DNA of 64,000 nt from the IMG/VR virus record IMGVR_UViG_3300034068_000286, positions 22,544 through 86,543 of that record; one strand, 5' to 3'. A model generated the notes under the pieces. It saw only the letters and a list, made by a program, of their open reading frames with translations, was not told where the DNA came from and did no database searches. Position 1 is the stretch's first letter, and every line of letters begins with the position of its first letter. This document shows, one piece after another, positions 8,689 through 25,175 of the stretch. The DNA comes from a virus. The position numbers and the translations under genes were made by a program.

Positions 8689-8996
8689 CGTATTTGAGTT
8701 AGTTTAAAATGTCTTTCATCGATAAGGCTTTTAACAAACTCTAGTAGTTGCTCAGCTGTCCACCCATTGTCAAGCCATTCAGTTTCCCACTCGTCTATTT
8801 TCCAAAGCATCTCTTTATTTTGAATTTTGATAATGTTTTCTAGTCGCTCAACATGTGTACGTGCCCCTTTAAACAAATACGCAAATTGTGCTACATCTCC
8901 CCATGCGCCAGTGTAATCTTTTTCTCGTCGATTATAATCGCTTGTGATACCAAATCCAGTTCTAAACGGCCCAGGCAAAATGTAGAAGTAACTCAT
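8685..8996 (-). CDS. GIY-YIG/T5orf172-like protein
   Basis: YFYI...GFGIT....R...Y...LE...TEW pattern. Confidence 0.5.
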   Translation of the reverse strand: MSYFYILPGPFRTGFGITSDYNRREKDYTGAWGDVAQFAYLFKGARTHVERLENIIKIQNKEMLWKIDEWETEWLDNGWTAEQLLEFVKSLIDERHFKLTQIR

Positions 8997-10132
8997 ACAG
9001 CTTCTACTTCTTCATATAATGCTTTAATTTCATCGTCAAGGAAGTCAATGATCTTTTCAAAACGATCTAATAAATGTTTTGGAATACGTTGAGTACCACC
9101 AAGACGCTGATATAACAGCATCAACACAGAGGCAATAGCTTCATCTTGCCAAGGAAACTCTTCATATCCATAATAGTATTTGCCCCATTTTTTATGAGCA
9201 CTGTGTACCGCCTTATGAAAGCCAGCAAGTCCCATAAAGTAGCCTTGCAATATGCCAGCAAGTTCACTTAGAAACTCTTCTGTGATTTTAATATTTGCCG
9301 CTTTAAATGCCTTAAAAAGATCTTCAATGATAAACCATAACGAGCCGTTAATTTCGTCGAAATGAAAATATGTGTCATGAAACTTACAGGCCATTTCTAA
9401 GATATCATCGTCAAGATTCAATGCCTGCATGTGAGTAAATGTACCCGGCTTGCCAATGAGGCTATCATGTTCTTTATCCACTGGATAGCAATTATATTTT
9501 TCACATATAGATTGCTTACGTTCTGCCTCAATGTCATCTTCGTCTGTGCTATTATCAATGCGAACACTCATTACCTTGGTACGATGGTCATACCAAGCAC
9601 TTATTTTCTTTTTGCCTTTGCCGTTAATAAGGGCAAATGCCTTGCGGGCAAATGCCTTATTATTAGTTTCCATGTAGAGCACCGGCATCTCAACCTCTTG
9701 CCAATCTGTTTCACCAGTAAACACACCAGCATCAATTAGTGCCGCAACCAGCGTGGCAGTATGTTGGGCATCAACAGAATGGTATTCCTCTTTGCCAGGT
9801 ACTTTAACACAATAAAATACCTGAAGGTACATTGGATTAAATGTACCAATGGAAGCAATATTTGTACAATGCTTTGCATCTAATGCTCGCTGAATATCCT
9901 CGTCAATGAATAAGAACTTTAGTTTAACCATCTTGATCAATGGACGTAGATTGGGATTAATCTGAATCCCTTGCTTTTGATACTCAGCAATTAACTTTTG
10001 CCAACCTTTATAGTTTTGTAATTCTTTAACACGGTCAATTAAGGCAACTATACGACTACTCTTTTGCTTCAATGGGTTTAAATTTTTCATGACGTTGGGC
10101 TTACGCACAACATCTTCATAAACTGGAATCAT
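8993..10132 (-). CDS. ParB/Srx-like N-terminal domain protein
   Basis: IDEDIQR and VDAQHT (DGQH-like) motifs, F..IN helix; own sigma70 promoter 10154-10182. Confidence 0.55.
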   Translation of the reverse strand: MIPVYEDVVRKPNVMKNLNPLKQKSSRIVALIDRVKELQNYKGWQKLIAEYQKQGIQINPNLRPLIKMVKLKFLFIDEDIQRALDAKHCTNIASIGTFNPMYLQVFYCVKVPGKEEYHSVDAQHTATLVAALIDAGVFTGETDWQEVEMPVLYMETNNKAFARKAFALINGKGKKKISAWYDHRTKVMSVRIDNSTDEDDIEAERKQSICEKYNCYPVDKEHDSLIGKPGTFTHMQALNLDDDILEMACKFHDTYFHFDEINGSLWFIIEDLFKAFKAANIKITEEFLSELAGILQGYFMGLAGFHKAVHSAHKKWGKYYYGYEEFPWQDEAIASVLMLLYQRLGGTQRIPKHLLDRFEKIIDFLDDEIKALYEEVEAV

Positions 10133-14044: not shown

Positions 14045-14106
14045 GTAGTAAATGTACCTGGTGTGCGTGTATTGTACACGAATACATTTACTATGTCAAG
14101 TCTTTT

Positions 14107-14835
14107 TTAATCTATTTTAATGATCCAGGCATCCGTCAGTTGATTGTTAAGGTAGTTGAATGGAATCCAAAGATGTCCACGTTCTCCCCAACTACTACCA
14201 AAACTATTACGGGCCAGGATCAGCCTCCGTTTCAAGTCGTATCCTACAAATAGGACAGCGTGAGCACCAAATGGTTCTTCGTTTGGTTCAGGTAATTTGA
14301 GTATTGGATCACTTGGACTTATTTCTTCAAATGCTTTGAACACTCGAATGCTAGCTATAACTGGATTTCCTGCATTTAGCGCATCTGTTATATCATTGAC
14401 ACCAGTTAGTCGATAATAGTTTTCAACGGTGGAGTTTAATGCATCTACATAACATTCATCAGTGGGGCGAACATTAAACTTTGAAATGTCATACGGCCAT
14501 AATTCTTCTGTACAAATACCATACTGCTTTGCGGCTTTTAGGGCATCGCGTGGGTAAGCACCAATATCTTCATTGATGGTTCCATCTTGTAATCGTGTGT
14601 TATAATACAAAAACAATGGACTCAAATCTACGTATGACTCTGGATAGTCTCTTTTTACAATTAACTCATATGCCCCGACTATGGCTTGACTTGCACAGCT
14701 TCCTAAATTGTATTGCTGTTCAACATCGCTGGCCATTGGTCGGAGGTCAACACTTTCGCGTATTGGCTTACGAGTAAGGTTATAATATAGGTCTCGCCAA
14801 TCTGTTTTATCTATGGCAAGATTATATTTTAACAT
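14107..14835 (-). CDS. Papain-like C1 cysteine peptidase
   Basis: VDLR, Q..LGSC, LSPLFLYY, HAVLFVGYD, RNSFGSSWG. Confidence 0.92.
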   Translation of the reverse strand: MLKYNLAIDKTDWRDLYYNLTRKPIRESVDLRPMASDVEQQYNLGSCASQAIVGAYELIVKRDYPESYVDLSPLFLYYNTRLQDGTINEDIGAYPRDALKAAKQYGICTEELWPYDISKFNVRPTDECYVDALNSTVENYYRLTGVNDITDALNAGNPVIASIRVFKAFEEISPSDPILKLPEPNEEPFGAHAVLFVGYDLKRRLILARNSFGSSWGERGHLWIPFNYLNNQLTDAWIIKID

Positions 14836-15518
14836 TATTGAATAAATTTATTTGGATACTGTTGAATTACACTATTTGCAAACGAATTTGCAAAGGTTGA
14901 TATTCTTTCAGCTGCCTGTGTATGAGCTGATGCACTTGTTGTATCGTCTTGATTTATAATAGCTGTTACTTCGCCGACCAAAGATTCTCGTATCGCAACC
15001 CACATGCGCTTGCCTGAACCAGGGAACCAATTGTTATTATACTGATTTAGTAACAGATCAAATCCATCAAAATTTGAATCTAAGTTTGTAATTTGATTTT
15101 TAACATCAATTTTAAATTTTAGATTACGACAAATGCCAACCATGCCAAGCCCAACGCCTCTAAAAACTTGAGTTAATCTTTCGTTGAATTCAATACCATA
15201 GTATGGTCGAAGCATTAGGCCAAGATCATTGACTTCATCAAAATACGCTGTTTCCTCTGTTAGCAATGCGTCCATGTCGCCATTTTCTGTTGCGGTTGCG
15301 AAGCTTGTTAATCTTTGATGCATTGTTGTAAAGTACGCATTTACATCTGCTCTAAATTTGTCAGCAGTTGTTGCGCCAACCATTGGACGCATGTCGTCAT
15401 ATCCGTTATATCCGTTATTTCCGTTATTTCCGTTGTCCAGCATACGTTTAATTTCAGTGTCTGCTGGGAGATCGAAGTGCTCTTCTTCGGTAATTGTATG
15501 AGTAATTTTCTTGTACAT
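14835..15518 (-). CDS. Hypothetical helical-bundle protein with NGN/NGY repeats
   Basis: AAGGA RBS before ATG 15518; LRPYYG motif. Confidence 0.7.
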   Translation of the reverse strand: MYKKITHTITEEEHFDLPADTEIKRMLDNGNNGNNGYNGYDDMRPMVGATTADKFRADVNAYFTTMHQRLTSFATATENGDMDALLTEETAYFDEVNDLGLMLRPYYGIEFNERLTQVFRGVGLGMVGICRNLKFKIDVKNQITNLDSNFDGFDLLLNQYNNNWFPGSGKRMWVAIRESLVGEVTAIINQDDTTSASAHTQAAERISTFANSFANSVIQQYPNKFIQ

Positions 15519-15529
15519 AATGTATTTCC

Positions 15530-16081
15530 TTATACTATAAACCAATGACCACCACGGCTAAGCAGGTGTACTGATTGCCAAGGTTCTGTCATTGTATAAC
15601 TTAAAGCACCATCTATGGTGCTGTCATTATTTGTTTCTATCGTCACATGCTGGCCGGCTGCTAATTTAGACATTTCTATCTTTAGTGCTATTTGGTAACC
15701 ATCGCCAGGATAAAGGGGAAGTGTAATAGTAATCGGTCTATCACAATTAATACCAATATAGCAATCATCGTTCGTGCATCCATAATCTTCCGATACTAAA
15801 ATTGTACCGAAAGTTGATTCCTGCGTATCACTGGAATCTCCTTGCGGTCCTGCAGGGCCTGCTGGCCCTACTACATGTCCAGCATTTAATTCAGTACCGT
15901 CGTTGTAAACTAAAATTAAATCACCATCTCGTGTTAGTCCTGCACTGACAATAATTTTTGCAGATGCGCTTATAACACCATCTGGTGTAATATTAATACC
16001 AGCACCAATCTTTACAACACCTAAAGATGTTTTGGTGGCAATGTCATCCTGCGACAAAACTGTTTTGGTATTGTATGACAT
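15530..16081 (-). CDS. Fibre-like protein with short collagen repeat and C-terminal beta domain
   Basis: LGVVKIGAGINITPDG repeat, GPAGPAGPQG, ITLP...IDG...W.IV. Confidence 0.7.
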   Translation of the reverse strand: MSYNTKTVLSQDDIATKTSLGVVKIGAGINITPDGVISASAKIIVSAGLTRDGDLILVYNDGTELNAGHVVGPAGPAGPQGDSSDTQESTFGTILVSEDYGCTNDDCYIGINCDRPITITLPLYPGDGYQIALKIEMSKLAAGQHVTIETNNDSTIDGALSYTMTEPWQSVHLLSRGGHWFIV

Positions 16082-16110
16082 AGTTTTATATCGTGTTACT
16101 GTATGCTATA

Positions 16111-16515
16111 TTAGATTAAGATCCACTGTGCGCCATCAAAGATAAACGTCAATGAACCAAATGGTACATCAATAGTAGCAGTTGCGGCGCCATCTACTGT
16201 GTCAGGGACTGTTGGTGTAATAGTAATAGGTGTTGCTGGTGCAGCCAATCCTAGTCCGTCTTTGATTGTGAATACTTTACCAGCAACACCTGCTGGCAAT
16301 GTAACTGCTACAGCAACTGGTCCAGGAACTTGTACGCTGATTACTTCATCTGTGGTTGCACTGGCTACGACTGGAGTTGCAACTGCAATTCTAACTGCCA
16401 CTGGATTAATACCATTAGTGCTAAGAGTAATTGTATTTGCACCTGTACCTGTTGTTGGTGTAACTGTGATACCTGCTCCGGCAAGTATCGATGTTGGATT
16501 ATTTGTATATGACAT
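16111..16515 (-). CDS. Small fibre-domain protein (paralog family)
   Basis: VTLP.G..G.VFTIKD..G.A...PITI...VDG...GSLTFIFDG..W. Confidence 0.7.
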   Translation of the reverse strand: MSYTNNPTSILAGAGITVTPTTGTGANTITLSTNGINPVAVRIAVATPVVASATTDEVISVQVPGPVAVAVTLPAGVAGKVFTIKDGLGLAAPATPITITPTVPDTVDGAATATIDVPFGSLTFIFDGAQWILI

Positions 16516-16556
16516 TTTTAGTTTTCCTTTATATTAACTAATTTCGACTGGAATGG

Positions 16557-16916
16557 TTATCCTATAATCTTCCAGTTTGTACCGTCATACACTACCTGTA
16601 TATGACCATATCCACCATTGATGATTGCAAATGGATTGCTGTCAATGGTCTTGGATCCTGCTGATGTAATAGTAACTGGGTTCGCCACTGAGTTACCTGA
16701 AATATCTTTGATGTAATATGAACGCTTTAGCACTGGCTTTTTTTTGCCGTTGTAGTCGTCGTCTTCATCGCCGCAACAATCTTCACCTGTGGCCAGGCCA
16801 TTGGCTGGCAATATAACAGACGATGGTCCAACAACATTCATAAAAATTACTTCATCTGATGATAACACGGTGTAAGGTGTTGTTGTAACTATTTTTGTGT
16901 TTAAATTTGAAGACAT
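16557..16916 (-). CDS. Small fibre-domain protein (paralog family)
   Basis: VILP...YYIKDISG...NPVTI...ID...VVYDG.NW. Confidence 0.7.
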   Translation of the reverse strand: MSSNLNTKIVTTTPYTVLSSDEVIFMNVVGPSSVILPANGLATGEDCCGDEDDDYNGKKKPVLKRSYYIKDISGNSVANPVTITSAGSKTIDSNPFAIINGGYGHIQVVYDGTNWKIIG

Positions 16917-16925
16917 ATTATTTCC

Positions 16926-17477
16926 TTAACTGATTCTTGTTAGTGTAACTTTTACACTGGCGCCGCTTGGACGCACTGGACCAACTCTTGCTGGCAATGC
17001 CAATAACTGCATGGTAGTGTCAGCACTACTCCAGCATAGTTCTACATTGCCCCCAGCAGGTATATCCAATGTATAATTGCCTGTAACGAAGATTGTATCC
17101 AATGCTCCTGTTAAAATTAAATCTTGTGCTGAGCCTGCAATGTCTGCTCCATTTAGACGTAGCCATATGCTAATAGTGCTAGCGCCACCGGATGTTTTGT
17201 TTACATTCATTGTAAACACCGTGTTGTATGTTCCAGCGTTGACTACTGTAAGTTGAGTACCCCCGACTATACTAATTCCATTTGCGGGACCAGTTTCACT
17301 AAATGTTGCCAAGTTAACTGCACTGGCCACTGGGTTAGTTTGTGTTCCGTTTTCAAAAAATCCATAGTTAAGTAAGCCTGTTGATGCGTTAACGGTTCCA
17401 TCAGTAACTGATAAACCAGTGCCGACTTTCATAATTCCAAAATCGGTGGTTGAAGTAAGTGGTGCTTTGTAGCCCAT
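16926..17477 (-). CDS. BclA C-terminal/C1q-like domain protein with N-terminal fibre repeat
   Basis: FGIMKVGTGLSVTDG; GISI.....V.NAGTY...F...IWLRLNG.DI.GS; TAATG coupling to upstream gene. Confidence 0.6.
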   Translation of the reverse strand: MGYKAPLTSTTDFGIMKVGTGLSVTDGTVNASTGLLNYGFFENGTQTNPVASAVNLATFSETGPANGISIVGGTQLTVVNAGTYNTVFTMNVNKTSGGASTISIWLRLNGADIAGSAQDLILTGALDTIFVTGNYTLDIPAGGNVELCWSSADTTMQLLALPARVGPVRPSGASVKVTLTRIS

Positions 17478-17947
17478 TATACGATACTCCACGCACTTCC
17501 ATTGAATACAAAAGTTAAGCTTCCGAAATTAGTATTAATTGTGGCCGTATTTCCATCGACTAATTCCCCGCCAGTGCCTTGAATAGTAATTGGATTAGTG
17601 ACTGCATCACCATCGCAATCTTTGACTATGTAAACTGTGCCTAATATACCAGTAGGCAATGTAATTGTCACTGGCGCGGCTACATCAACGCAAAGGAAAT
17701 AATCCTGTGCGGTGGCTGTGTATGTTGCTGTTGTTACTTGTGTGACTGTGACTGGACTTGGGTTTCCTCCAGTAATAATATTTCCGCTCCCGATATTAAT
17801 AATGTCATTATCATTGCCTGTATTACTTCCAGGAATGTACAATGGTATTGGTACAAACGGAGGGAATGGTGGGTAAAAACCTGCTGGTGCAATACCTTGG
17901 GTTTGATTTTGATACGGATATTGATCCTGAAATTGATCTTGTGACAT
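17477..17947 (-). CDS. Small fibre-domain protein with Gln/Pro-rich N-terminus
   Basis: ITLP.G..G.VYIVKD..G.A..NPITI...VDG...GSLTFVFNG..W; GGAG RBS. Confidence 0.7.
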   Translation of the reverse strand: MSQDQFQDQYPYQNQTQGIAPAGFYPPFPPFVPIPLYIPGSNTGNDNDIINIGSGNIITGGNPSPVTVTQVTTATYTATAQDYFLCVDVAAPVTITLPTGILGTVYIVKDCDGDAVTNPITIQGTGGELVDGNTATINTNFGSLTFVFNGSAWSIV

Positions 17948-17956
17948 AGGTTCTCC

Positions 17957-17992
17957 AAAAAAAAGCACTCGCCCTTGTGAGGCAAGTGCTTT
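17957..17992 (-). terminator. Intra-operon intrinsic terminator
   Basis: GCACUUGCC/GGCGAGUGC stem followed by U8. Confidence 0.8.
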
Positions 17993-18000
17993 AATAACAA

Positions 18001-18759
18001 TTATCGAATGTTAGTATTGTTGTTCAATGGATTGGCCGTTTGTGTGCCAGTTCCAACATTGATAGCTTGGTTAGTAGCCTGAATGCCTTGCGCTAGTGAG
18101 TAAATAGCGTGGTACAACTGGCCATACTGTTGCTGTTGCTGAGTTTGTTGTTGCATCTGATTGATGTTATTAGTTGTAGTAACTTCAACACCACGAGTAC
18201 GCTCGGCATTATCAAAGCGATTCTGCAAAGCAATAACTGCGGCATTAGCATCAGATAGTTGACGATTCAACATTGCTTCGTATTGTGATGTAATCAATGC
18301 ACGAGTTTTGTCACCGTCATCATAAACTGCACGTTGTGTTTCATTAGCTGTTGTCATCAAGTTAGTATTGATGGTGTTCAACTGTTGTGCAAGTACCATT
18401 GCATTTGCATTAACTGCTTCTCTTGTGCCGTCAATACGAGCTGCCAAACTGCCTGTGACATTGTTCAATTGTGATGTGATAGCCGCTGATTGGTTAGCTT
18501 GACTGCCTTCCATTGCCGCTGTGCCAACTGCCACTGCTTTGTCAACTGCTCCAACGCTGGCCATCAAGTCCATGTTAGCTTGAACTTGCTCAGGTGGACT
18601 GCGTAAAACTGCTCCGCCTGCACCATCGTTGCCTAATAGATTGCCGTTGTTACGTAGTAATGATCCTAAAATCAAACCACCAATCAGGCCACCGCCTACG
18701 CCCATGCCACCGCCGCCAAGGATGTCGCCACCGCCTGTTACTGTAGATAAATCTGCCAT
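18001..18759 (-). CDS. Gly-rich N-terminus / coiled-coil / Gln-Asn-rich protein
   Basis: GGGLIGGLILGSLL hydrophobic segment, long heptad region, QQQ tail; AGGAG RBS. Confidence 0.75.
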   Translation of the reverse strand: MADLSTVTGGGDILGGGGMGVGGGLIGGLILGSLLRNNGNLLGNDGAGGAVLRSPPEQVQANMDLMASVGAVDKAVAVGTAAMEGSQANQSAAITSQLNNVTGSLAARIDGTREAVNANAMVLAQQLNTINTNLMTTANETQRAVYDDGDKTRALITSQYEAMLNRQLSDANAAVIALQNRFDNAERTRGVEVTTTNNINQMQQQTQQQQQYGQLYHAIYSLAQGIQATNQAINVGTGTQTANPLNNNTNIR

Positions 18760-18854
18760 TTTTTAATTTCTCCTATTTAAATATGAGACTTAGAAGTTCT
18801 CATATCTACTTAGGGGGAAATCTTAATAGTAATGGTAGCTTTTAGTATTACGGT

Positions 18855-18866
18855 ATACTCCAGTAC
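18855..18866. promoter_or_regulatory. Putative LuxR/NarL-type operator
   Basis: ATACTCCAGTAC, 11/12 identical to the palindrome at 19650-19661. Confidence 0.5.
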
Positions 18867-18875
18867 TAGAAAAAG

Positions 18876-19580
18876 TTATGCTCGCAATCCAAATTCTGAA
18901 CCAGACAATGCCAATTGTGTTCTGTTGCGTACCTTGTATGCTTTTAGGATTGCGCTGATATGGACCTTGACTGTACTTTCACTTATGTTTAATATTTGTG
19001 CTATCTTTTTATTACTCAATCCGCGTTTACACACTAGGTCAAAAATTTCGGTTTGTCTATTTGTCAATGCAATTTCATCTTTGGCATTTTTTGTTTTTAT
19101 TACAGCGCCTGGTAACTGATCTAAAATATGTTTAGGCCAATATGATATTTGATTAACCAGCATTGTCAGGCCCTGAGTCATTTCACTTATTCCAAATGAT
19201 TCAGCCGATGGCACTATTCCTACCAATGACGTTCGTTTTAAATCCCTTATCACCGCATATGGTGTTTCCTTATCTATACTAACGCCAATGGGAATCGTTC
19301 TTCCTGGTGTGGTAAATTTGATAAGTGTTTCAAGCATTGACACAAATTCAAAAATAGTAGTACCCTCTTGCACAAGCATACCAATATGAAATATAATTTG
19401 AGATGGCTCTGAACTTAACACATCACTGAGATCCTTCCAGTGACCACAAAACTTGGTTTTAAATACAGCATCTTCTCTTGTTAGTAGTGCCAGAGTTGTT
19501 GCTGGTATTTGTGTTTCCCAGTCTTTACGAAAATAAACACTTACTGGTTTATGATTTAAATTTGGTATTACGTTTGACAT
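18876..19580 (-). CDS. LuxR/NarL-family transcriptional regulator with degenerate receiver domain
   Basis: LTNRQTEIF.L...GLSNKKIA..LNISESTVKVHISAIL....VRNRTQ. Confidence 0.9.
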   Translation of the reverse strand: MSNVIPNLNHKPVSVYFRKDWETQIPATTLALLTREDAVFKTKFCGHWKDLSDVLSSEPSQIIFHIGMLVQEGTTIFEFVSMLETLIKFTTPGRTIPIGVSIDKETPYAVIRDLKRTSLVGIVPSAESFGISEMTQGLTMLVNQISYWPKHILDQLPGAVIKTKNAKDEIALTNRQTEIFDLVCKRGLSNKKIAQILNISESTVKVHISAILKAYKVRNRTQLALSGSEFGLRA

Positions 19581-19638
19581 TGTTATGCTTTCTTGTACCA
19601 ATACTTAAAAGCATATAAGCATAATAGTGGTAAGCAAT

Positions 19639-19661
19639 AGTACTAGATAGTACTCCAGTAC
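19639..19661. promoter_or_regulatory. Putative LuxR/NarL-type operator upstream of the regulator
   Basis: Palindrome GTACT-CC-AGTAC (19650-19661) plus AGTACT at 19639. Confidence 0.5.
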
Positions 19662-19676
19662 GATATGATCAGCCAT

Positions 19677-19700
19677 AAAAAACGCACCCTAGGTGCGTTG
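19677..19700 (-). terminator. Intrinsic terminator insulating the LuxR module
   Basis: AACGCACC/GGTGCGTT stem plus U tract. Confidence 0.8.
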
Positions 19701-20610: not shown

Positions 20611-20680
20611 AATTATTATCAATTATTATCAATTATTATCAATTATTATCAATTATTATCAATTATTATCAATTATTATC
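20611..20680. repeat. Perfect tandem repeat (AATTATTATC)x7
   Basis: Seven exact 10-bp units. Confidence 0.95.
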
Positions 20681-21737
20681 GATTATCGGGGAAATAATCT
20701 TCCATTGTACCTTCTCTGTGTAAATCAGTAGTGATACAATGTAATCCACCATCCCAGAAATAACGATGTCTAAAATTGCAAATATGTGGAGTAATATTAT
20801 ATCTACCGAATGCATCAAATACTGTTTTATTATATCCATTAACGATTACATTATGTTTGTCAATAACCAGCATATTAACATCAAACACACTTTCTTCAAC
20901 ATAACCTACCCAATGACTCATCCACTTCTCAACGTAGCTGGTAAAGTCATCATTTAGTTCTTGTCCAGGAACCCACCACTTGCCTTCATTTTTGTATTTC
21001 ATTTGAAGGAACGGATCTACTTTATTCATCTCACCAGTTAGTGCAACTACCTCCCAGCCAGGAAATGTTTTCCCATATTGTAAAGGTTCTTGATTAGATA
21101 TTATCAATCCTGGTACCACAGGACAAAATGTACCATCAGTGTGTCCCTGAGTATCTATATTGTGAACACGATAATCGGGCAATTTGTCTTGTAATTCGTT
21201 TGATACTCTTGCCAGATCTTCAGCGGTGTTGTTGAATTCGAATCTACCCGGCGTCCCAACTATTAAGTCTCGACCAATACGACTAATCATTGCGGCATTT
21301 AAAAAATGCCATGTATCCAACTTAGGTTCACTTGAACCATAATCTGGCCCTCGTTCTGTAGTATTGCCCTGAGCTTGTACTAAATCTACTATGGGTTCAT
21401 TGGTTGCAGGTACGCCTCGCCAGTAAAACTTATCGCCTAACATGGCACAGTAATCTCTAGGTTGCATTTCACTTGGTCGCGGAATAAATGTATTGGTTTC
21501 AATACCTCGTTGTGATTCTGCAATCCGTTCGGTCATGTCAGGTCTAACTGTTTGCACACCAAAACTATGTAATAGATTAATTAGTTTTTGATAGTCTTCT
21601 TCAGTTTCTTCTGCTATTTGATAAAATACCTTGCGAACCTTTTCGTTCTTGATATAATCATAAAGTTCTGGGGGATACGATTTTCCCACTGCACAGACTT
21701 TGAGTCTGTCCCAATGTTGATAAACTGAATATGTCAT
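20676..21737 (-). CDS. Amidinotransferase (glycine/inosamine amidinotransferase-like)
   Basis: PRD, H.DG, FDVNML, GGLHCITTDLHREG. Confidence 0.85.
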   Translation of the reverse strand: MTYSVYQHWDRLKVCAVGKSYPPELYDYIKNEKVRKVFYQIAEETEEDYQKLINLLHSFGVQTVRPDMTERIAESQRGIETNTFIPRPSEMQPRDYCAMLGDKFYWRGVPATNEPIVDLVQAQGNTTERGPDYGSSEPKLDTWHFLNAAMISRIGRDLIVGTPGRFEFNNTAEDLARVSNELQDKLPDYRVHNIDTQGHTDGTFCPVVPGLIISNQEPLQYGKTFPGWEVVALTGEMNKVDPFLQMKYKNEGKWWVPGQELNDDFTSYVEKWMSHWVGYVEESVFDVNMLVIDKHNVIVNGYNKTVFDAFGRYNITPHICNFRHRYFWDGGLHCITTDLHREGTMEDYFPDNR

Positions 21738-24782: not shown

Positions 24783-25175
24783 TTATCGACGCATTGTTGA
24801 AATTGCTATGGCTTCTTCATCGCTGAAAATAGGAACAGCATTTGACTTGTGCATAGTGCCAATACCTTTAACCTTGGTACCTGTGTACTGCGGTGATGCT
24901 CGGTATGTTCCGGCACCAGTTTCGCCTGTGTTACGAGATGGGATATGTGCAGACGTTCTACCTGCTGGTGCGCCAAGATTATACACCAACGGCTCAGCAC
25001 TCATTGCTCGCCGGCGTTTACGTTCTTCTTGCTCTACGCCCTGACGCTTTAGTAAGTCATTCCAAGATTCTTCCAATTCTTCTGCCTTTCGTTTAGCTTC
25101 AGATGAGGCAAATTTCTTTTTGCCTCGCATCTTGCCTGTTGTACTAAGCCACGGACCTTCCATATGCATCGACAT
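24783..25175 (-). CDS. Conserved phage hypothetical protein
   Basis: YTG...GIGTMHKSNAVPIF; promoter TTGACA-N17-TATAAT at 25237-25209. Confidence 0.8.
   Translation of the reverse strand: MSMHMEGPWLSTTGKMRGKKKFASSEAKRKAEELEESWNDLLKRQGVEQEERKRRRAMSAEPLVYNLGAPAGRTSAHIPSRNTGETGAGTYRASPQYTGTKVKGIGTMHKSNAVPIFSDEEAIAISTMRR

What the first reader, a model, noticed from the sequence alone, without database searches (positions are those of the whole stretch)
14107..19700. Terminator-insulated, LuxR-controlled module of fibre/BclA-like proteins, a putative major subunit and a papain protease
Seen: nine co-oriented genes cut off from upstream early transcription by a terminator (19677-19700). The order is LuxR regulator, a 252-aa Gly-rich/hydrophobic + coiled-coil + Q/N-rich protein, a terminator, five small beta-domain proteins, a helical protein and a C1 peptidase. 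Known: the small proteins carry motifs seen in phage fibre repeats, and one resembles a BclA/C1q trimer domain. Inference: this is a separately regulated unit that builds a fibre, surface or secreted structure, with proteolytic maturation. It lies away from any recognisable virion gene block in this window, and virion genes do not normally have a dedicated LuxR regulator. I cannot name a described system with this layout.
Basis: partly seen in the sequence, partly recalled or inferred. Interest (0 to 1): 0.85.

Follow-up and report, generated by a model that had tools for sequence, protein, structure and literature searches.

The report
Conserved phage stalk-and-fibre gene module
An uncultured lake phage carries a self-contained gene set: a strongly conserved stalk-like protein of unknown family, followed by several small fibre proteins with knob-like heads. 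The same core pair recurs in about a hundred other phage contigs, but where the structure sits and what it does remain unknown.

Summary
Nine co-oriented minus-strand genes (14107-19601) lie behind a terminator (19699-19681). In order they are: a LuxR/GerE regulator, a 252-aa protein (g2), a second terminator (17992-17962), five small beta proteins, a helical protein and an intact papain-type peptidase.

In 76 of 80 IMG/VR loci, g2 is directly followed by 1-5 small genes that share a C-terminal domain. That domain is related to the XD1 domain of T4 gp34/gp9 and CBA120 TSP4. One small protein (g4) has a BclA/TNF-like fold.

The first gene after g2 belongs to a position-specific class. It has a Gln/Pro/aromatic N-terminus, a DxDxxI motif, usually collagen repeats, and an XD1 head.

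g2 is modelled as a Gly-zipper hydrophobic segment, one 172-residue helix and a conserved tail. It has no Pfam or PDB relative. It is as conserved as replication enzymes. A hairpin follows it in 58 of 67 loci.

LuxR (4 loci), the peptidase (6) and the helical protein (2) are lineage-specific additions. g2 homologues also sit at cargo positions in enterobacterial prophages.

Best reading: an accessory stalk-plus-fibre assembly whose location is unresolved. This scan's first readers noted the same module in other genomes, without follow-up.

The parts
19681..19699 (-). Intrinsic-terminator-like hairpin plus T-run that closes the upstream transcription unit
   Evidence: 8-bp stem, 5 GC pairs, loop of 3, T-run; sequence read
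19651..19661 (-). 11-mer GTACTGGAGTA, part of the inverted repeat GTACT-GG-AGTAC; candidate operator upstream of g1
   Evidence: exactly two perfect copies in 64 kb, both in the intergenic regions flanking g1
18876..19601 (-). g1: LuxR/GerE-HTH regulator with a divergent response-regulator/CsgD-like N-terminal half (probable ATG at 19580)
   Evidence: PF00196, E 5.7e-15; ErdR, CsgD and NarL models align from residue ~109/139 onward; orthologues upstream of g2 in L076, L024 and L088
18856..18866 (-). Second copy of GTACTGGAGTA, about 95 nt upstream of the g2 start; candidate operator
18781..18805 (-). Leader hairpin directly before the g2 ribosome-binding site, preceded by the conserved TAAGTAG
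   Evidence: L076 keeps it with a compensatory A:T to G:C change; L088 inverted repeat I1
18001..18759 (-). g2: 252-aa protein with a Gly-zipper hydrophobic segment (about residues 13-35), one long helix (57-228) and a conserved Asn/Thr-rich tail with an INxGxG motif. Founding member of an unannotated family
   Evidence: over 2,145 homologues; 251 clusters at 50% identity; AF2; no Pfam, PDB or NCBIfam hit; 4 of 44 members hit phrog_8119, function unknown; conservation
17962..17992 (-). Terminator-like hairpin (13-bp stem, T8) between g2 and g3; conserved attenuator or 3' stabiliser
   Evidence: (equivalent hairpin after the g2 stop in 58 of 67 distinct loci, with different stem sequences)
17477..17947 (-). 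g3: first partner. Gln/Pro/aromatic-rich N-terminus, NDNDxINIGSG motif and C-terminal XD1-like head; this sub-lineage lacks the collagen repeats
16926..17492 (-). g4: N-terminal fibre-repeat motif plus a C-terminal TNF/C1q/BclA-like jelly-roll head
   Evidence: orthologues in 20 of 80 loci
16557..16916 (-). g5: XD1-like head with almost no stalk and an acidic, Cys-containing insertion
16111..16515 (-). g6: short Thr/Gly fibre-repeat stalk plus XD1-like head
15530..16081 (-). g7: fibre-repeat N-terminus, short collagen-like GPAGPAGPQG stretch and XD1-like head
   Evidence: 81% identical orthologue in L076
14835..15545 (-). g8: helical protein of unknown family with an Asn/Gly-rich stretch (probable ATG at 15518). 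Its stop overlaps the g9 start (TAATG)
   Evidence: only L076 has an orthologue (29% identity)
14107..14835 (-). g9: papain-family (C1) cysteine peptidase with Gln41, Cys47, His192 and Asn210 in canonical motifs; no signal peptide and no propeptide
   Evidence: PF00112; phrog_16701; residues; its closest relatives all follow XD1 genes
14071..14099 (-). TTGACA-17-TACAAT promoter-like site of the next gene; marks the 3' edge of the unit

Best explanation
The unit encodes an accessory stalk-plus-fibre assembly built from a conserved two-gene core.

g2 is made in excess. It has a strong ribosome-binding site, a leader hairpin, and a terminator-like hairpin right after its stop codon. It is predicted to form an oligomeric coiled-coil stalk about 25 nm long, non-canonical and rich in Asn, Gln, Ala and Thr. 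A Gly-zipper hydrophobic segment lies at its N-terminal end, and a conserved tail with an INxGxG motif lies at the other.

The gene directly after the hairpin encodes the cognate fibre. Its Gln/Pro/aromatic N-terminus and DxDxxI(N) motif are inferred to dock onto the Gln-rich end and tail of g2. A collagen-like (or, in this window, Gly/Asn-rich) spacer then carries an XD1-type beta-sandwich head.

Further paralogues (here g5, g6, g7, plus the TNF/BclA-like g4) supply alternative heads on short stalks. These heads plausibly bind carbohydrate or protein ligands.

In the window's sub-lineage the unit has three additions. It sits under a phage LuxR/CsgD-like regulator, with two identical 11-mers in the g1 and g2 upstream regions. 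It has also gained a translationally coupled pair: helical g8 and a prodomain-less papain-type peptidase.

What is shown:
- gene content, synteny and conservation
- domain homologies
- the g4 fold
- the hairpins
- the position-specific partner class

What is inferred:
- oligomeric state
- g2-partner docking
- ligand binding
- LuxR control
- any substrate of the peptidase

The place of display is unresolved. My split is: virion surface (neck, capsid or baseplate accessory fibres) about 0.45; membrane-associated structure of the infected or lysogenic cell about 0.3; other about 0.25.
For: Synteny:
- g2 is followed by XD1-type genes in 76 of 80 loci.
- Copy number is 1-5 in the 55 of 57 loci that have at least 4 kb downstream and carry at least one copy.

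Position-specific partner class:
- Among 66 distinct first partners, 53 start MxQxQ, 51 have the Pro/aromatic motif, 48 have DxDxxI and 55 have four or more GXY repeats.
- Among 62 later XD1 genes the corresponding counts for the DxDxxI motif, GXY repeats and MxQxQ start are 0, 2 and 0.

Co-variation between g2 and its partner:
- In L086-L088 a shorter g2-like protein lacks the Gly-zipper (A4 HMM E 1.7e-10 and 3e-4).
- There the partner N-terminus is a coiled coil plus collagen instead.

Shared motif: the g2 tail and the g3 N-terminal region share the motif IN(V/I)G(S/T)G.

g2 model: a single helix spanning residues 57-228, with pLDDT above 90 over residues 80-190. Hydrophobic periodicity is 3.34/3.67, not 3.5.

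XD1 homology:
- The profile hits T4-type gp34 N-terminal domains (E 7e-7 and 1.9e-6), CBA120 TSP4-N (E 1.8e-3) and gp9 (E 0.04).
- The TSP4 match (residues 99-167) falls inside the XD1 domain (residues 80-178) defined in PMC8825819.

g4 has a TNF/BclA-like fold.

The hairpin after g2 is present in 58 of 67 distinct loci, with varied stems.

g2 is as conserved as FEN, SbcD or PhoH in the same loci: mean 66.5% identity against 62-79%.

A 4.1-kb contig from an RNA library, from a relative about 90% identical, spans g2 to g7 at depth 31.7. This is weak evidence: contigs only, and DNA carry-over is not excluded.

LuxR:
- Two perfect 11-mers lie in the two regions flanking g1.
- LuxR genes lie upstream of g2 in L076, L024 and L088.

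Peptidase:
- The catalytic residues are intact.
- All three closest IMG/VR relatives, plus L076 and L024, directly follow XD1 genes.
Against: - No direct evidence exists for any physical complex, oligomeric state or location. The fold tool handles single chains only.
- The unit never lies in a morphogenesis block. In about 30 loci it lies between class II RNR, dUTPase, FEN, SbcCD and SSB genes on one side and PhoH on the other.
- In many loci the g2 upstream region carries a sigma-70-like TATAAT rather than the (N)ATAAATAA or CTAAATAA late motif seen before structural genes of the T4-like relative G002.
- In enterobacterial genomes, g2 homologues sit at cargo positions. One is between Q and holin-lysozyme-Rz on the opposite strand. 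One is at a prophage end after a putative HicAB-like pair (read from the translations, not scanned). One is next to an integrase remnant. At least two of the three are followed by a Gln/Pro-rich protein, and none of the following proteins shows an XD1-like sequence. This placement is unusual for a virion part.
- The cultured phages At2 and KLER1-1 have g2 without any XD1 gene.
- The Gly-zipper segment is only borderline for a membrane helix: median 19-residue hydropathy is 1.52, and 14 of 44 homologues reach 1.6.
- The two LuxR 11-mers are not found in the corresponding regions of L076.
Confidence: 0.55

Rival explanations
1. This is a non-virion, membrane-anchored accessory (moron-type) system. 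g2 inserts its Gly-zipper into the inner membrane of the infected or lysogenic cell. Its stalk, with the attached head proteins, acts at the envelope, for example in superinfection exclusion, defence against other phages, or control of lysis.
For: - g2 occupies cargo or moron positions in three enterobacterial genomes.
- It is placed among early and replication genes in phages.
- Sigma-70-like -10 elements lie upstream of g2 in many loci.
- Dedicated LuxR regulators are present in a sub-lineage.
- g2 is close to lysis genes in At2 (endolysin plus spanins within 1.5 kb), in L094 (holin-lysozyme-Rz) and in 22 IMG/VR loci (a lysozyme-like gene about 5 kb away).
- The hydrophobic glycine zipper is followed by Arg.
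Against: - The partner proteins have no signal peptides. They could meet g2 only on the cytoplasmic side.
- Many homologues carry a 90-130-aa N-terminal beta domain or a long disordered region before the zipper. L086-L088 lack the zipper altogether.
- Hydropathy is borderline.
- g2 evolves as slowly as core enzymes, unlike typical exclusion or defence genes.
- There is no PADLOC hit.
- XD1, collagen and TNF-like heads are typical virion fibre parts.
Confidence: 0.22
2. These are ordinary tail-fibre or baseplate parts that happen to be encoded away from the main tail block. The small XD1 proteins are adaptors or connectors of the tail-fibre network, like gp9 or gp10 fragments. g2 is a fibritin-like whisker or assembly chaperone expressed with the late genes.
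For: - XD1 homology to gp34, gp9 and TSP4, plus PHROG hits to baseplate and tail-fibre families.
- In T4, accessory virion genes are also scattered (established knowledge of hoc and soc).
- A CTAAATA late-like motif lies before the small gene upstream of g2 in the T4-like G002.
- The window's contig has a tail-fibre block at genome positions 6.1-13.7 kb.
Against: - The module occurs unchanged in phages with a T4-type capsid gene and in complete 104-kb and 124-kb genomes where none was detected. g2 also occurs in a 49-kb myovirus, a 76-kb Acinetobacter phage and lambdoid or P2-like prophages. It therefore cannot dock on one particular baseplate.
- No other protein on the 86.5-kb contig carries the XD1 domain.
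- g2 has no similarity to fibritin or to any solved fibre protein.
- In the prophages it lies outside, or on the opposite strand from, the late operon.
Confidence: 0.13
3. g2 is an ejected, membrane-active pilot protein. A fusion-peptide-like Gly segment plus a long helix would form a conduit across the envelope, like the phiX174 H tube or tape-measure C-termini. The small proteins would be tip factors.
For: - Composition is typical of proteins that pass through narrow channels: Ala, Gly, Asn, Gln and Thr make up 55%, with no Cys or Trp.
- A 172-residue helix would be about 25 nm long, roughly the width of the periplasm.
- One homologue (P0131) joins a tape-measure-like N-terminal half to the g2 C-terminal half.
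Against: - P0131 is a single sequence and may be a chimeric assembly. It has no PHROG hit.
- No fused long forms were found.
- The genomic position is far from the tail genes.
- This reading does not explain the collagen/XD1 partner or the prophage cargo position.
Confidence: 0.07

Closest known systems
BclA / ExsFA(BxpB) hair-like nap of the Bacillus exosporium, and F-BclA on F-ENA appendages
   Same: - Fibres are built from an N-terminal anchoring peptide, a collagen-like spacer and a C-terminal globular trimer head.
- They are anchored on a separate base protein.
- g4's head has the same TNF/C1q-like fold.
- Most first partners carry collagen repeats (PF01391 on several homologues).
   Different: - The heads of the main partners are XD1-type, not TNF-like.
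- The base protein g2 is a long helix with a Gly-zipper, not a TNF-like trimer.
- The carriers are phages of Gram-negative or freshwater hosts.
- There are no signal peptides and no spore context.
- There is no sequence similarity beyond the fold and the repeat type.
T4 tail-fibre network proteins gp9, gp10 and gp34, and the CBA120 TSP4 N-terminal region (XD1 domain)
   Same: The ~90-aa C-terminal domain of g3, g5, g6 and g7 matches the XD1 region by profile search. The match boundaries fit the published XD1 domain (PMC8825819).
   Different: - Here the domain stands alone at the C-terminus of 119-183-aa proteins, as the distal end of short stalks. It is not an internal spacer of large baseplate or fibre proteins.
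- The genes are arrayed in 1-5 paralogues behind g2, away from the tail genes.
T4 fibritin (Wac) whiskers and phi29 head fibres (gp8.5)
   Same: Both are accessory coiled-coil fibres of a few tens of nanometres, dispensable for particle assembly. They are encoded as separate small genes.
   Different: - g2 has no detectable sequence relation to them.
- It carries a hydrophobic Gly-zipper and a Gln-rich end.
- It is paired with a separate head-bearing protein.
- It occurs at prophage cargo positions.
Lambdoid and P2-like prophage morons (for example bor and lom of lambda), from established knowledge
   Same: Enterobacterial g2 homologues lie between Q and the lysis genes on the opposite strand, or at the prophage end after the tail-fibre genes. 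These are typical positions of autonomously expressed cargo.
   Different: - Known morons at these sites are lipoproteins, outer-membrane proteins, toxins or defence genes.
- None is a Gly-zipper coiled-coil protein with a Gln/Pro-rich partner.
- In lytic lake phages the same family evolves as slowly as a core gene.
Fimbrial or pilus operons with an attenuator after the major-subunit gene, under LuxR/CsgD/FimZ-type regulators
   Same: - The first gene is followed by a conserved terminator-like hairpin, which would give an excess of the first product.
- The regulator matches CsgD, FimZ and NarL-type models in its C-terminal part.
   Different: - There are no signal peptides, chaperone, usher or secretion genes.
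- g2 is predicted to be one long helix, not a pilin fold.

Membership tests
XD1 beta-sandwich domain of T4 gp9/gp10/gp34 and CBA120 TSP4 | Sequence-profile similarity to the XD1 region of solved members | tested here: met
   9x3r gp34 residues 104-189, E 7e-7; 9f4a gp34, E 1.9e-6; 7rej TSP4-N residues 99-167, E 1.8e-3; gp9, E 0.04. XD1 of TSP4 spans residues 80-178.
XD1 beta-sandwich domain of T4 gp9/gp10/gp34 and CBA120 TSP4 | Nine-stranded mixed beta-sandwich fold | not tested
XD1 beta-sandwich domain of T4 gp9/gp10/gp34 and CBA120 TSP4 | Internal spacer domain within a large trimeric baseplate or fibre protein | tested here: not met
   The domain is C-terminal in stand-alone proteins of 119-183 aa.
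BclA/C1q/TNF-like trimeric head proteins | TNF-like jelly-roll fold of the C-terminal domain | tested here: met
   g4 model pLDDT 81, pTM 0.72. Foldseek hits to 4-1BBL, F-BclA, BclA and BxpB/ExsFA at E 3e-8 to 3e-7. Sequence-level hints alone were not significant.
BclA/C1q/TNF-like trimeric head proteins | Collagen-like GXY stalk preceding the head | tested here: not met
   g4 has a fibre-repeat N-terminus and no GXY run. Collagen repeats occur on the XD1 partners instead.
BclA/C1q/TNF-like trimeric head proteins | Homotrimer | not testable with these tools
   Only single-chain prediction is available.
Papain family (C1) cysteine peptidases | Pfam PF00112 match above the gathering score | tested here: met
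   48.2 bits against a cut-off of 20.7, residues 27-225.
Papain family (C1) cysteine peptidases | Catalytic Gln, Cys, His and Asn in canonical motifs | tested here: met
   Gln41, Cys47 (GSC), His192 (GAHAV) and Asn210 (NSFG..WG).
Papain family (C1) cysteine peptidases | Signal peptide and I29-type inhibitory propeptide (typical of C1A enzymes) | tested here: not met
   The protein starts about 25 residues before the mature-domain motif. No other Pfam domain was found.
LuxR/FixJ/NarL-type regulators | C-terminal GerE-type HTH | tested here: met
   PF00196, E 5.7e-15, residues 179-231.
LuxR/FixJ/NarL-type regulators | N-terminal receiver domain with a phospho-acceptor Asp, or an autoinducer-binding domain | tested here: inconclusive
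   There is no Pfam hit to Response_reg or Autoind_bind. NCBIfam response-regulator models (ErdR, CsgD) align only from residue ~109/139. No structure was made.
T4 fibritin (Wac) | Sequence or profile relation to fibritin, or a C-terminal foldon | tested here: not met
   The g2 family profile has no significant Pfam or PDB hit.
Two-component spanins (i-spanin/o-spanin) | N-terminal membrane helix plus periplasmic coiled coil | tested here: inconclusive
   A long helix is predicted. The hydrophobic segment is borderline. Many homologues have large domains before it.
Two-component spanins (i-spanin/o-spanin) | Adjacent or embedded outer-membrane lipoprotein gene, within a lysis cassette | tested here: not met
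   The downstream genes lack a lipobox or signal peptide. At2 and L094 each carry a separate spanin or Rz gene besides g2.
Known anti-phage defence systems (PADLOC 2.0) | Match to any defence-protein model | tested here: not met
   Only the HTH of g1 matches regulator models. g2-g4, g6-g9 and the L094 pair have no hit; g5 was not submitted.

The most novel reading that the evidence does not exclude
g2 and its collagen/XD1 partner build a previously undescribed phage-encoded structure that is not part of the tail. It would be a BclA-like 'nap' of stalks and heads. The anchor would be a glycine-zipper segment, either in the host inner membrane (an infected-cell or lysogen structure) or in the capsid surface. 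The structure would be shared as a mobile two-gene cassette between unrelated phage lineages and prophages. In one lineage it would be wired to phage LuxR-type regulators and a papain-type peptidase.
Probability: 0.2. Interest if true: 0.85.

Novelty: new variant of a known kind. Interest (0 to 1): 0.6.

Why it matters
The g2 family is abundant in public metagenomes, with more than 2,145 homologues and 251 clusters at 50% identity. It evolves as slowly as replication enzymes, yet it has no Pfam, NCBIfam or structural annotation.

Together with a position-specific collagen/XD1 partner it forms a cassette. The cassette moves between T4-like jumbo phages, 100-kb phages in which no T4-type capsid gene was detected, small myoviruses and enterobacterial prophages.

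Knowing what it builds would:
- annotate thousands of 'hypothetical' genes in lake viromes;
- show whether stand-alone XD1 and TNF-like heads act as adhesins;
- possibly reveal a new class of phage accessory structure, or a new cargo function in prophages.

Two cultured carriers make it experimentally accessible: Acinetobacter phage At2 and Pararheinheimera phage KLER1-1. The LuxR link in the window's lineage would be a rare case of a phage-encoded regulator dedicated to a fibre-like unit.

Tried and rejected
- **Near-identical DNA in cultured phages:** none found. The contig comes from lake-water metagenomes.
- **g2 against known libraries:** Pfam, PHROGs, NCBIfam, PADLOC and PDB gave nothing meaningful. 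The only hits were chance-level CCDC154 and SctB, and phrog_8119 of unknown function.
- **ESM Atlas:** returned only unnamed viral clusters.
- **Fused long forms of g2:** none found (weak evidence).
- **T4 late promoter TATAAATA:** it occurs once in the window and not near the unit. The TTTAAATA before the g2 ribosome-binding site lies too close to the start codon to be its promoter (read). The expression class therefore stays open.
- **RNA evidence:** only Logan contigs were available. They show presence in two metatranscriptome libraries but cannot give transcript ends, strand or expression level.
- **Bacterial genomes:** the first scan with one protein found nothing, and the full alignment was too diverse to use. 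A narrower alignment found four loci.
- **E. coli genomes:** no match to the Entomohabitans prophage pair.
- **Literature:** no paper was found on phage KLER1-1 or on this module.
- **Fold search with the g2 model:** not run, because a single long helix would give meaningless matches.
- **Spanin, holin, fibritin and pilus readings:** considered and not adopted. See the membership tests.

Full report
**Setting.** The window is bases 22544-86543 of a single 86.5-kb virus contig assembled from lake-water metagenomes. It has no near relative among 50,697 phage records. The contig carries T4-type replication genes, many radical-SAM and other metabolic genes, and a tail-fibre block at genome positions 6.1-13.7 kb. 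The closest relative of the region (L076) lies on a 233-kb contig judged 65% complete. That contig has a T4-type major capsid gene, so the phage is probably a T4-like jumbo phage.

**Observation.**
- Nine genes lie head to tail on the minus strand between 19601 and 14107.
- g1 has a GerE/LuxR HTH and g9 is a papain-family peptidase, both above Pfam's cut-offs.
- g9 keeps Gln41, Cys47, His192 and Asn210 in canonical motifs. It has neither a signal peptide nor a propeptide.
- Terminator-like hairpins with T-runs lie at 19699-19681, before g1, and at 17992-17962, between g2 and g3.
- g3, g5, g6 and g7 share a ~90-aa C-terminal domain. g4 is different.
- g8 and g9 are translationally coupled (TAATG). 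The next gene downstream has its own TTGACA-17-TACAAT site.

**What is conserved.**
- A scan of IMG/VR with g2 gave 124 confirmed loci. In 76 of the 80 fetched, g2 is followed on the same strand by genes with the small domain. g4-type genes occur in 20.
- Of the 57 loci with at least 4 kb downstream, 55 carry one to five copies and two carry none.
- LuxR genes occur upstream only in L076 and L024, the peptidase downstream only in the same two, and g8 only in L076.
- A second scan with the peptidase found eight loci. The three closest (43-45% identity; L086-L088) again sit directly behind two XD1-type genes and a shorter g2-like coiled-coil protein, with a LuxR gene in L088. The five more distant peptidases are in unrelated contexts.
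- The core is therefore g2 plus XD1 genes. LuxR, g8 and the peptidase are additions of one sub-lineage. Within that sub-lineage the order is kept even though the add-on proteins have diverged to 29-43% identity while g2 stays at 85%.

**The small domain.**
- A profile of 33 diverse copies hits the N-terminal domains of two T4-type long-tail-fibre proximal subunits (E 7e-7 and 1.9e-6). It also hits the CBA120 TSP4 N-terminal fragment (E 1.8e-3) and the gp9 connector (E 0.04).
- The TSP4 match (residues 99-167) falls within the XD1 domain (80-178) defined by the crystal structure paper. That paper also notes the same fold in gp9 and gp10 and in glycan-binding modules of the secreted proteases CpaA and StcE (PMC8825819).
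- In the proteins studied here the domain is the C-terminal end of short stalks: fibre repeats, collagen repeats or coiled coils.
- g4's C-terminal domain is a TNF/C1q/BclA-type jelly roll by predicted fold.

**g2.**
- The family has more than 2,145 members at 90% clustering and 251 clusters at 50%. It has no Pfam, NCBIfam or PDB relative.
- AlphaFold2 with 44 diverse homologues gives a short helix over the Gly-zipper (25-36) and one uninterrupted helix spanning residues 57-228, with pLDDT above 90 for residues 80-190. The tail is disordered but conserved.
- The helix shows hydrophobic periodicities of about 3.34 and 3.67 rather than 3.5. Ala, Gly, Asn, Gln and Thr make up 55% of the protein, which has no Cys or Trp.
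- The hydrophobic segment is only borderline for a membrane helix.
- Many homologues carry a 90-130-aa beta domain or a long disordered region in front of it. The L086-L088 variants lack it.
- In 24 loci that also carry RNR, PhoH and dUTPase, g2 is as conserved (mean 66.5% identity) as FEN, SbcD, SbcC, dUTPase and PhoH (62-72%).

**The g2-partner pair.**
- The first XD1 gene after g2 is a distinct class. Of 66 distinct sequences, 53 begin MxQxQ, 51 have a Pro/aromatic motif (PFGWP, FFPPP and the like), 48 have DxDxxI and 55 have four or more GXY repeats. The 62 later XD1 proteins score 0, 2 and 0 for the DxDxxI motif, GXY repeats and MxQxQ start.
- The window's g3 keeps the Gln/Pro/aromatic N-terminus and an NDNDxINIGSG motif, but it has lost the collagen repeats.
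- The g2 tail carries the same INxGxG motif.
- Where g2 is of the short, zipper-less type, the partner's N-terminus is a coiled coil instead. This co-variation, the fixed gene order and the shared motifs are the basis for inferring direct docking. It remains an inference.

**Expression signals.**
- A GC-rich hairpin followed by a T-rich tract lies just after the g2 stop in 58 of 67 distinct loci. The stems differ widely and the loops are similar. This fits a conserved partial terminator or 3' stabiliser that favours g2 over the downstream genes.
- In the window, L076 and L088, a leader hairpin preceded by TAAGTAG lies directly before the ribosome-binding site. There is one compensatory base-pair change between the window and L076.
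- GTACTGGAGTA occurs exactly twice in the window, in the two intergenic regions flanking g1. This is compatible with autoregulation and activation by g1. However, the motif is not found in the corresponding regions of L076.
- g1 aligns with response-regulator, CsgD and NarL models only over its C-terminal 100-130 residues.
- A 4.1-kb contig from a metatranscriptome library, from a relative about 90% identical, covers g2 to g7 at depth 31.7. This shows presence in an RNA library but is no proof of a single transcript.

**Context elsewhere.**
- In about 30 loci the module lies downstream of class II RNR, dUTPase, FEN, SbcCD and an SSB-like gene, and upstream of PhoH, a ferritin-like gene and a lysozyme-like gene. 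These neighbour names were read from the cluster representatives' sequences, not confirmed by a family scan.
- It occurs in complete genomes with a T4-type capsid gene (171 kb). It also occurs in complete genomes of 124 and 104 kb where none was detected.
- g2 alone occurs in Acinetobacter phage At2, next to an endolysin and spanins. It also occurs in Pararheinheimera phage KLER1-1, in the early/replication region.
- It occurs in three Enterobacteriaceae genomes:
  - between Q and holin-lysozyme-Rz on the opposite strand;
  - at a prophage end between a putative HicAB-like pair (read from the translations) and purB;
  - next to an integrase remnant.
- In at least two of these three genomes g2 is followed by a Gln/Pro-rich protein. 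None of the following proteins shows an XD1-like sequence.
- In the T4-like relative G002, structural genes are preceded by (N)ATAAATAA or CTAAATAA. g2 is not, although the small gene before it is. Many other loci have a TATAAT upstream of g2.

**Interpretation.** The evidence supports a stalk-plus-heads assembly made from a conserved pair, with optional extra heads. The nearest analogy is the BclA/ExsFA nap, or an accessory whisker. The evidence does not settle where it is displayed. Fibre-type domains point to the virion. Genomic placement, prophage cargo positions, the hydrophobic zipper and the dedicated regulators point to a cell-associated role. I give the assembly reading 0.55 overall. 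The rivals are a membrane-anchored moron-type function (0.22), ordinary tail parts (0.13) and an ejected pilot protein (0.07).

**Limits.**
- No multimer prediction was possible.
- No model was made of the XD1 proteins.
- No raw RNA reads were available.
- No cultured close relative exists.
- The same module had been noted by this scan's first readers in other genomes, without follow-up. Those notes are not independent evidence.

Noticed in passing
window 20611-20686: A 10-bp unit (AATTATTATC) is repeated 7.6 times at 98% identity. It lies in the gap between the amidinotransferase-like gene and the next gene. The promoter scan reads it as five phased TTGATA-16-GATAAT sites.
   Followed up: no
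L076 7956-9044: The relative's second LuxR-type gene encodes a 362-aa protein. It has an N-terminal signal-like peptide, a domain that by eye looks like a periplasmic-binding (TctC/Bug-like) domain (not scanned against Pfam), and a C-terminal LuxR HTH. This is an unusual fusion for a phage regulator.
   Followed up: partly
L094 9560-11083 (Entomohabitans teleogrylli), L096 9587-10609 (Lelliottia wanjuensis), L097 10001-11029 (Buttiauxella brennerae): g2 homologues in enterobacterial prophages or remnants sit at cargo positions. At least two are followed by a Gln/Pro-rich protein. The L094 copy has a His/Lys-repeat and Gly/Tyr-rich N-terminal region.
   Followed up: partly
L081 (Acinetobacter phage At2) 7518-10343: In this cultured phage the g2 homologue lies about 1 kb upstream of an endolysin-like gene. 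An overlapping pair follows that looks like i-spanin/o-spanin, with a lipobox LVGC.
   Followed up: partly
P0131 (metagenome protein, 402 aa): A tape-measure-like N-terminal half is joined to the C-terminal half of g2. This is either a natural fusion or an assembly chimera.
   Followed up: partly
window 14071-14099, 8993-10132 upstream, 24783-25175 upstream and others: Many genes of the contig are preceded by near-consensus TTGACA-17-TATAAT sites. In contrast, (C)TAAATA-type motifs precede only a few genes.
   Followed up: no
IMG/VR loci, about 650 nt upstream of g2 (cluster 8; e.g. L021 5602-5859): An 85-aa acidic protein of unknown family precedes g2 in 27 loci. In several it is translationally close to g2. 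It has no PHROG hit.
   Followed up: partly
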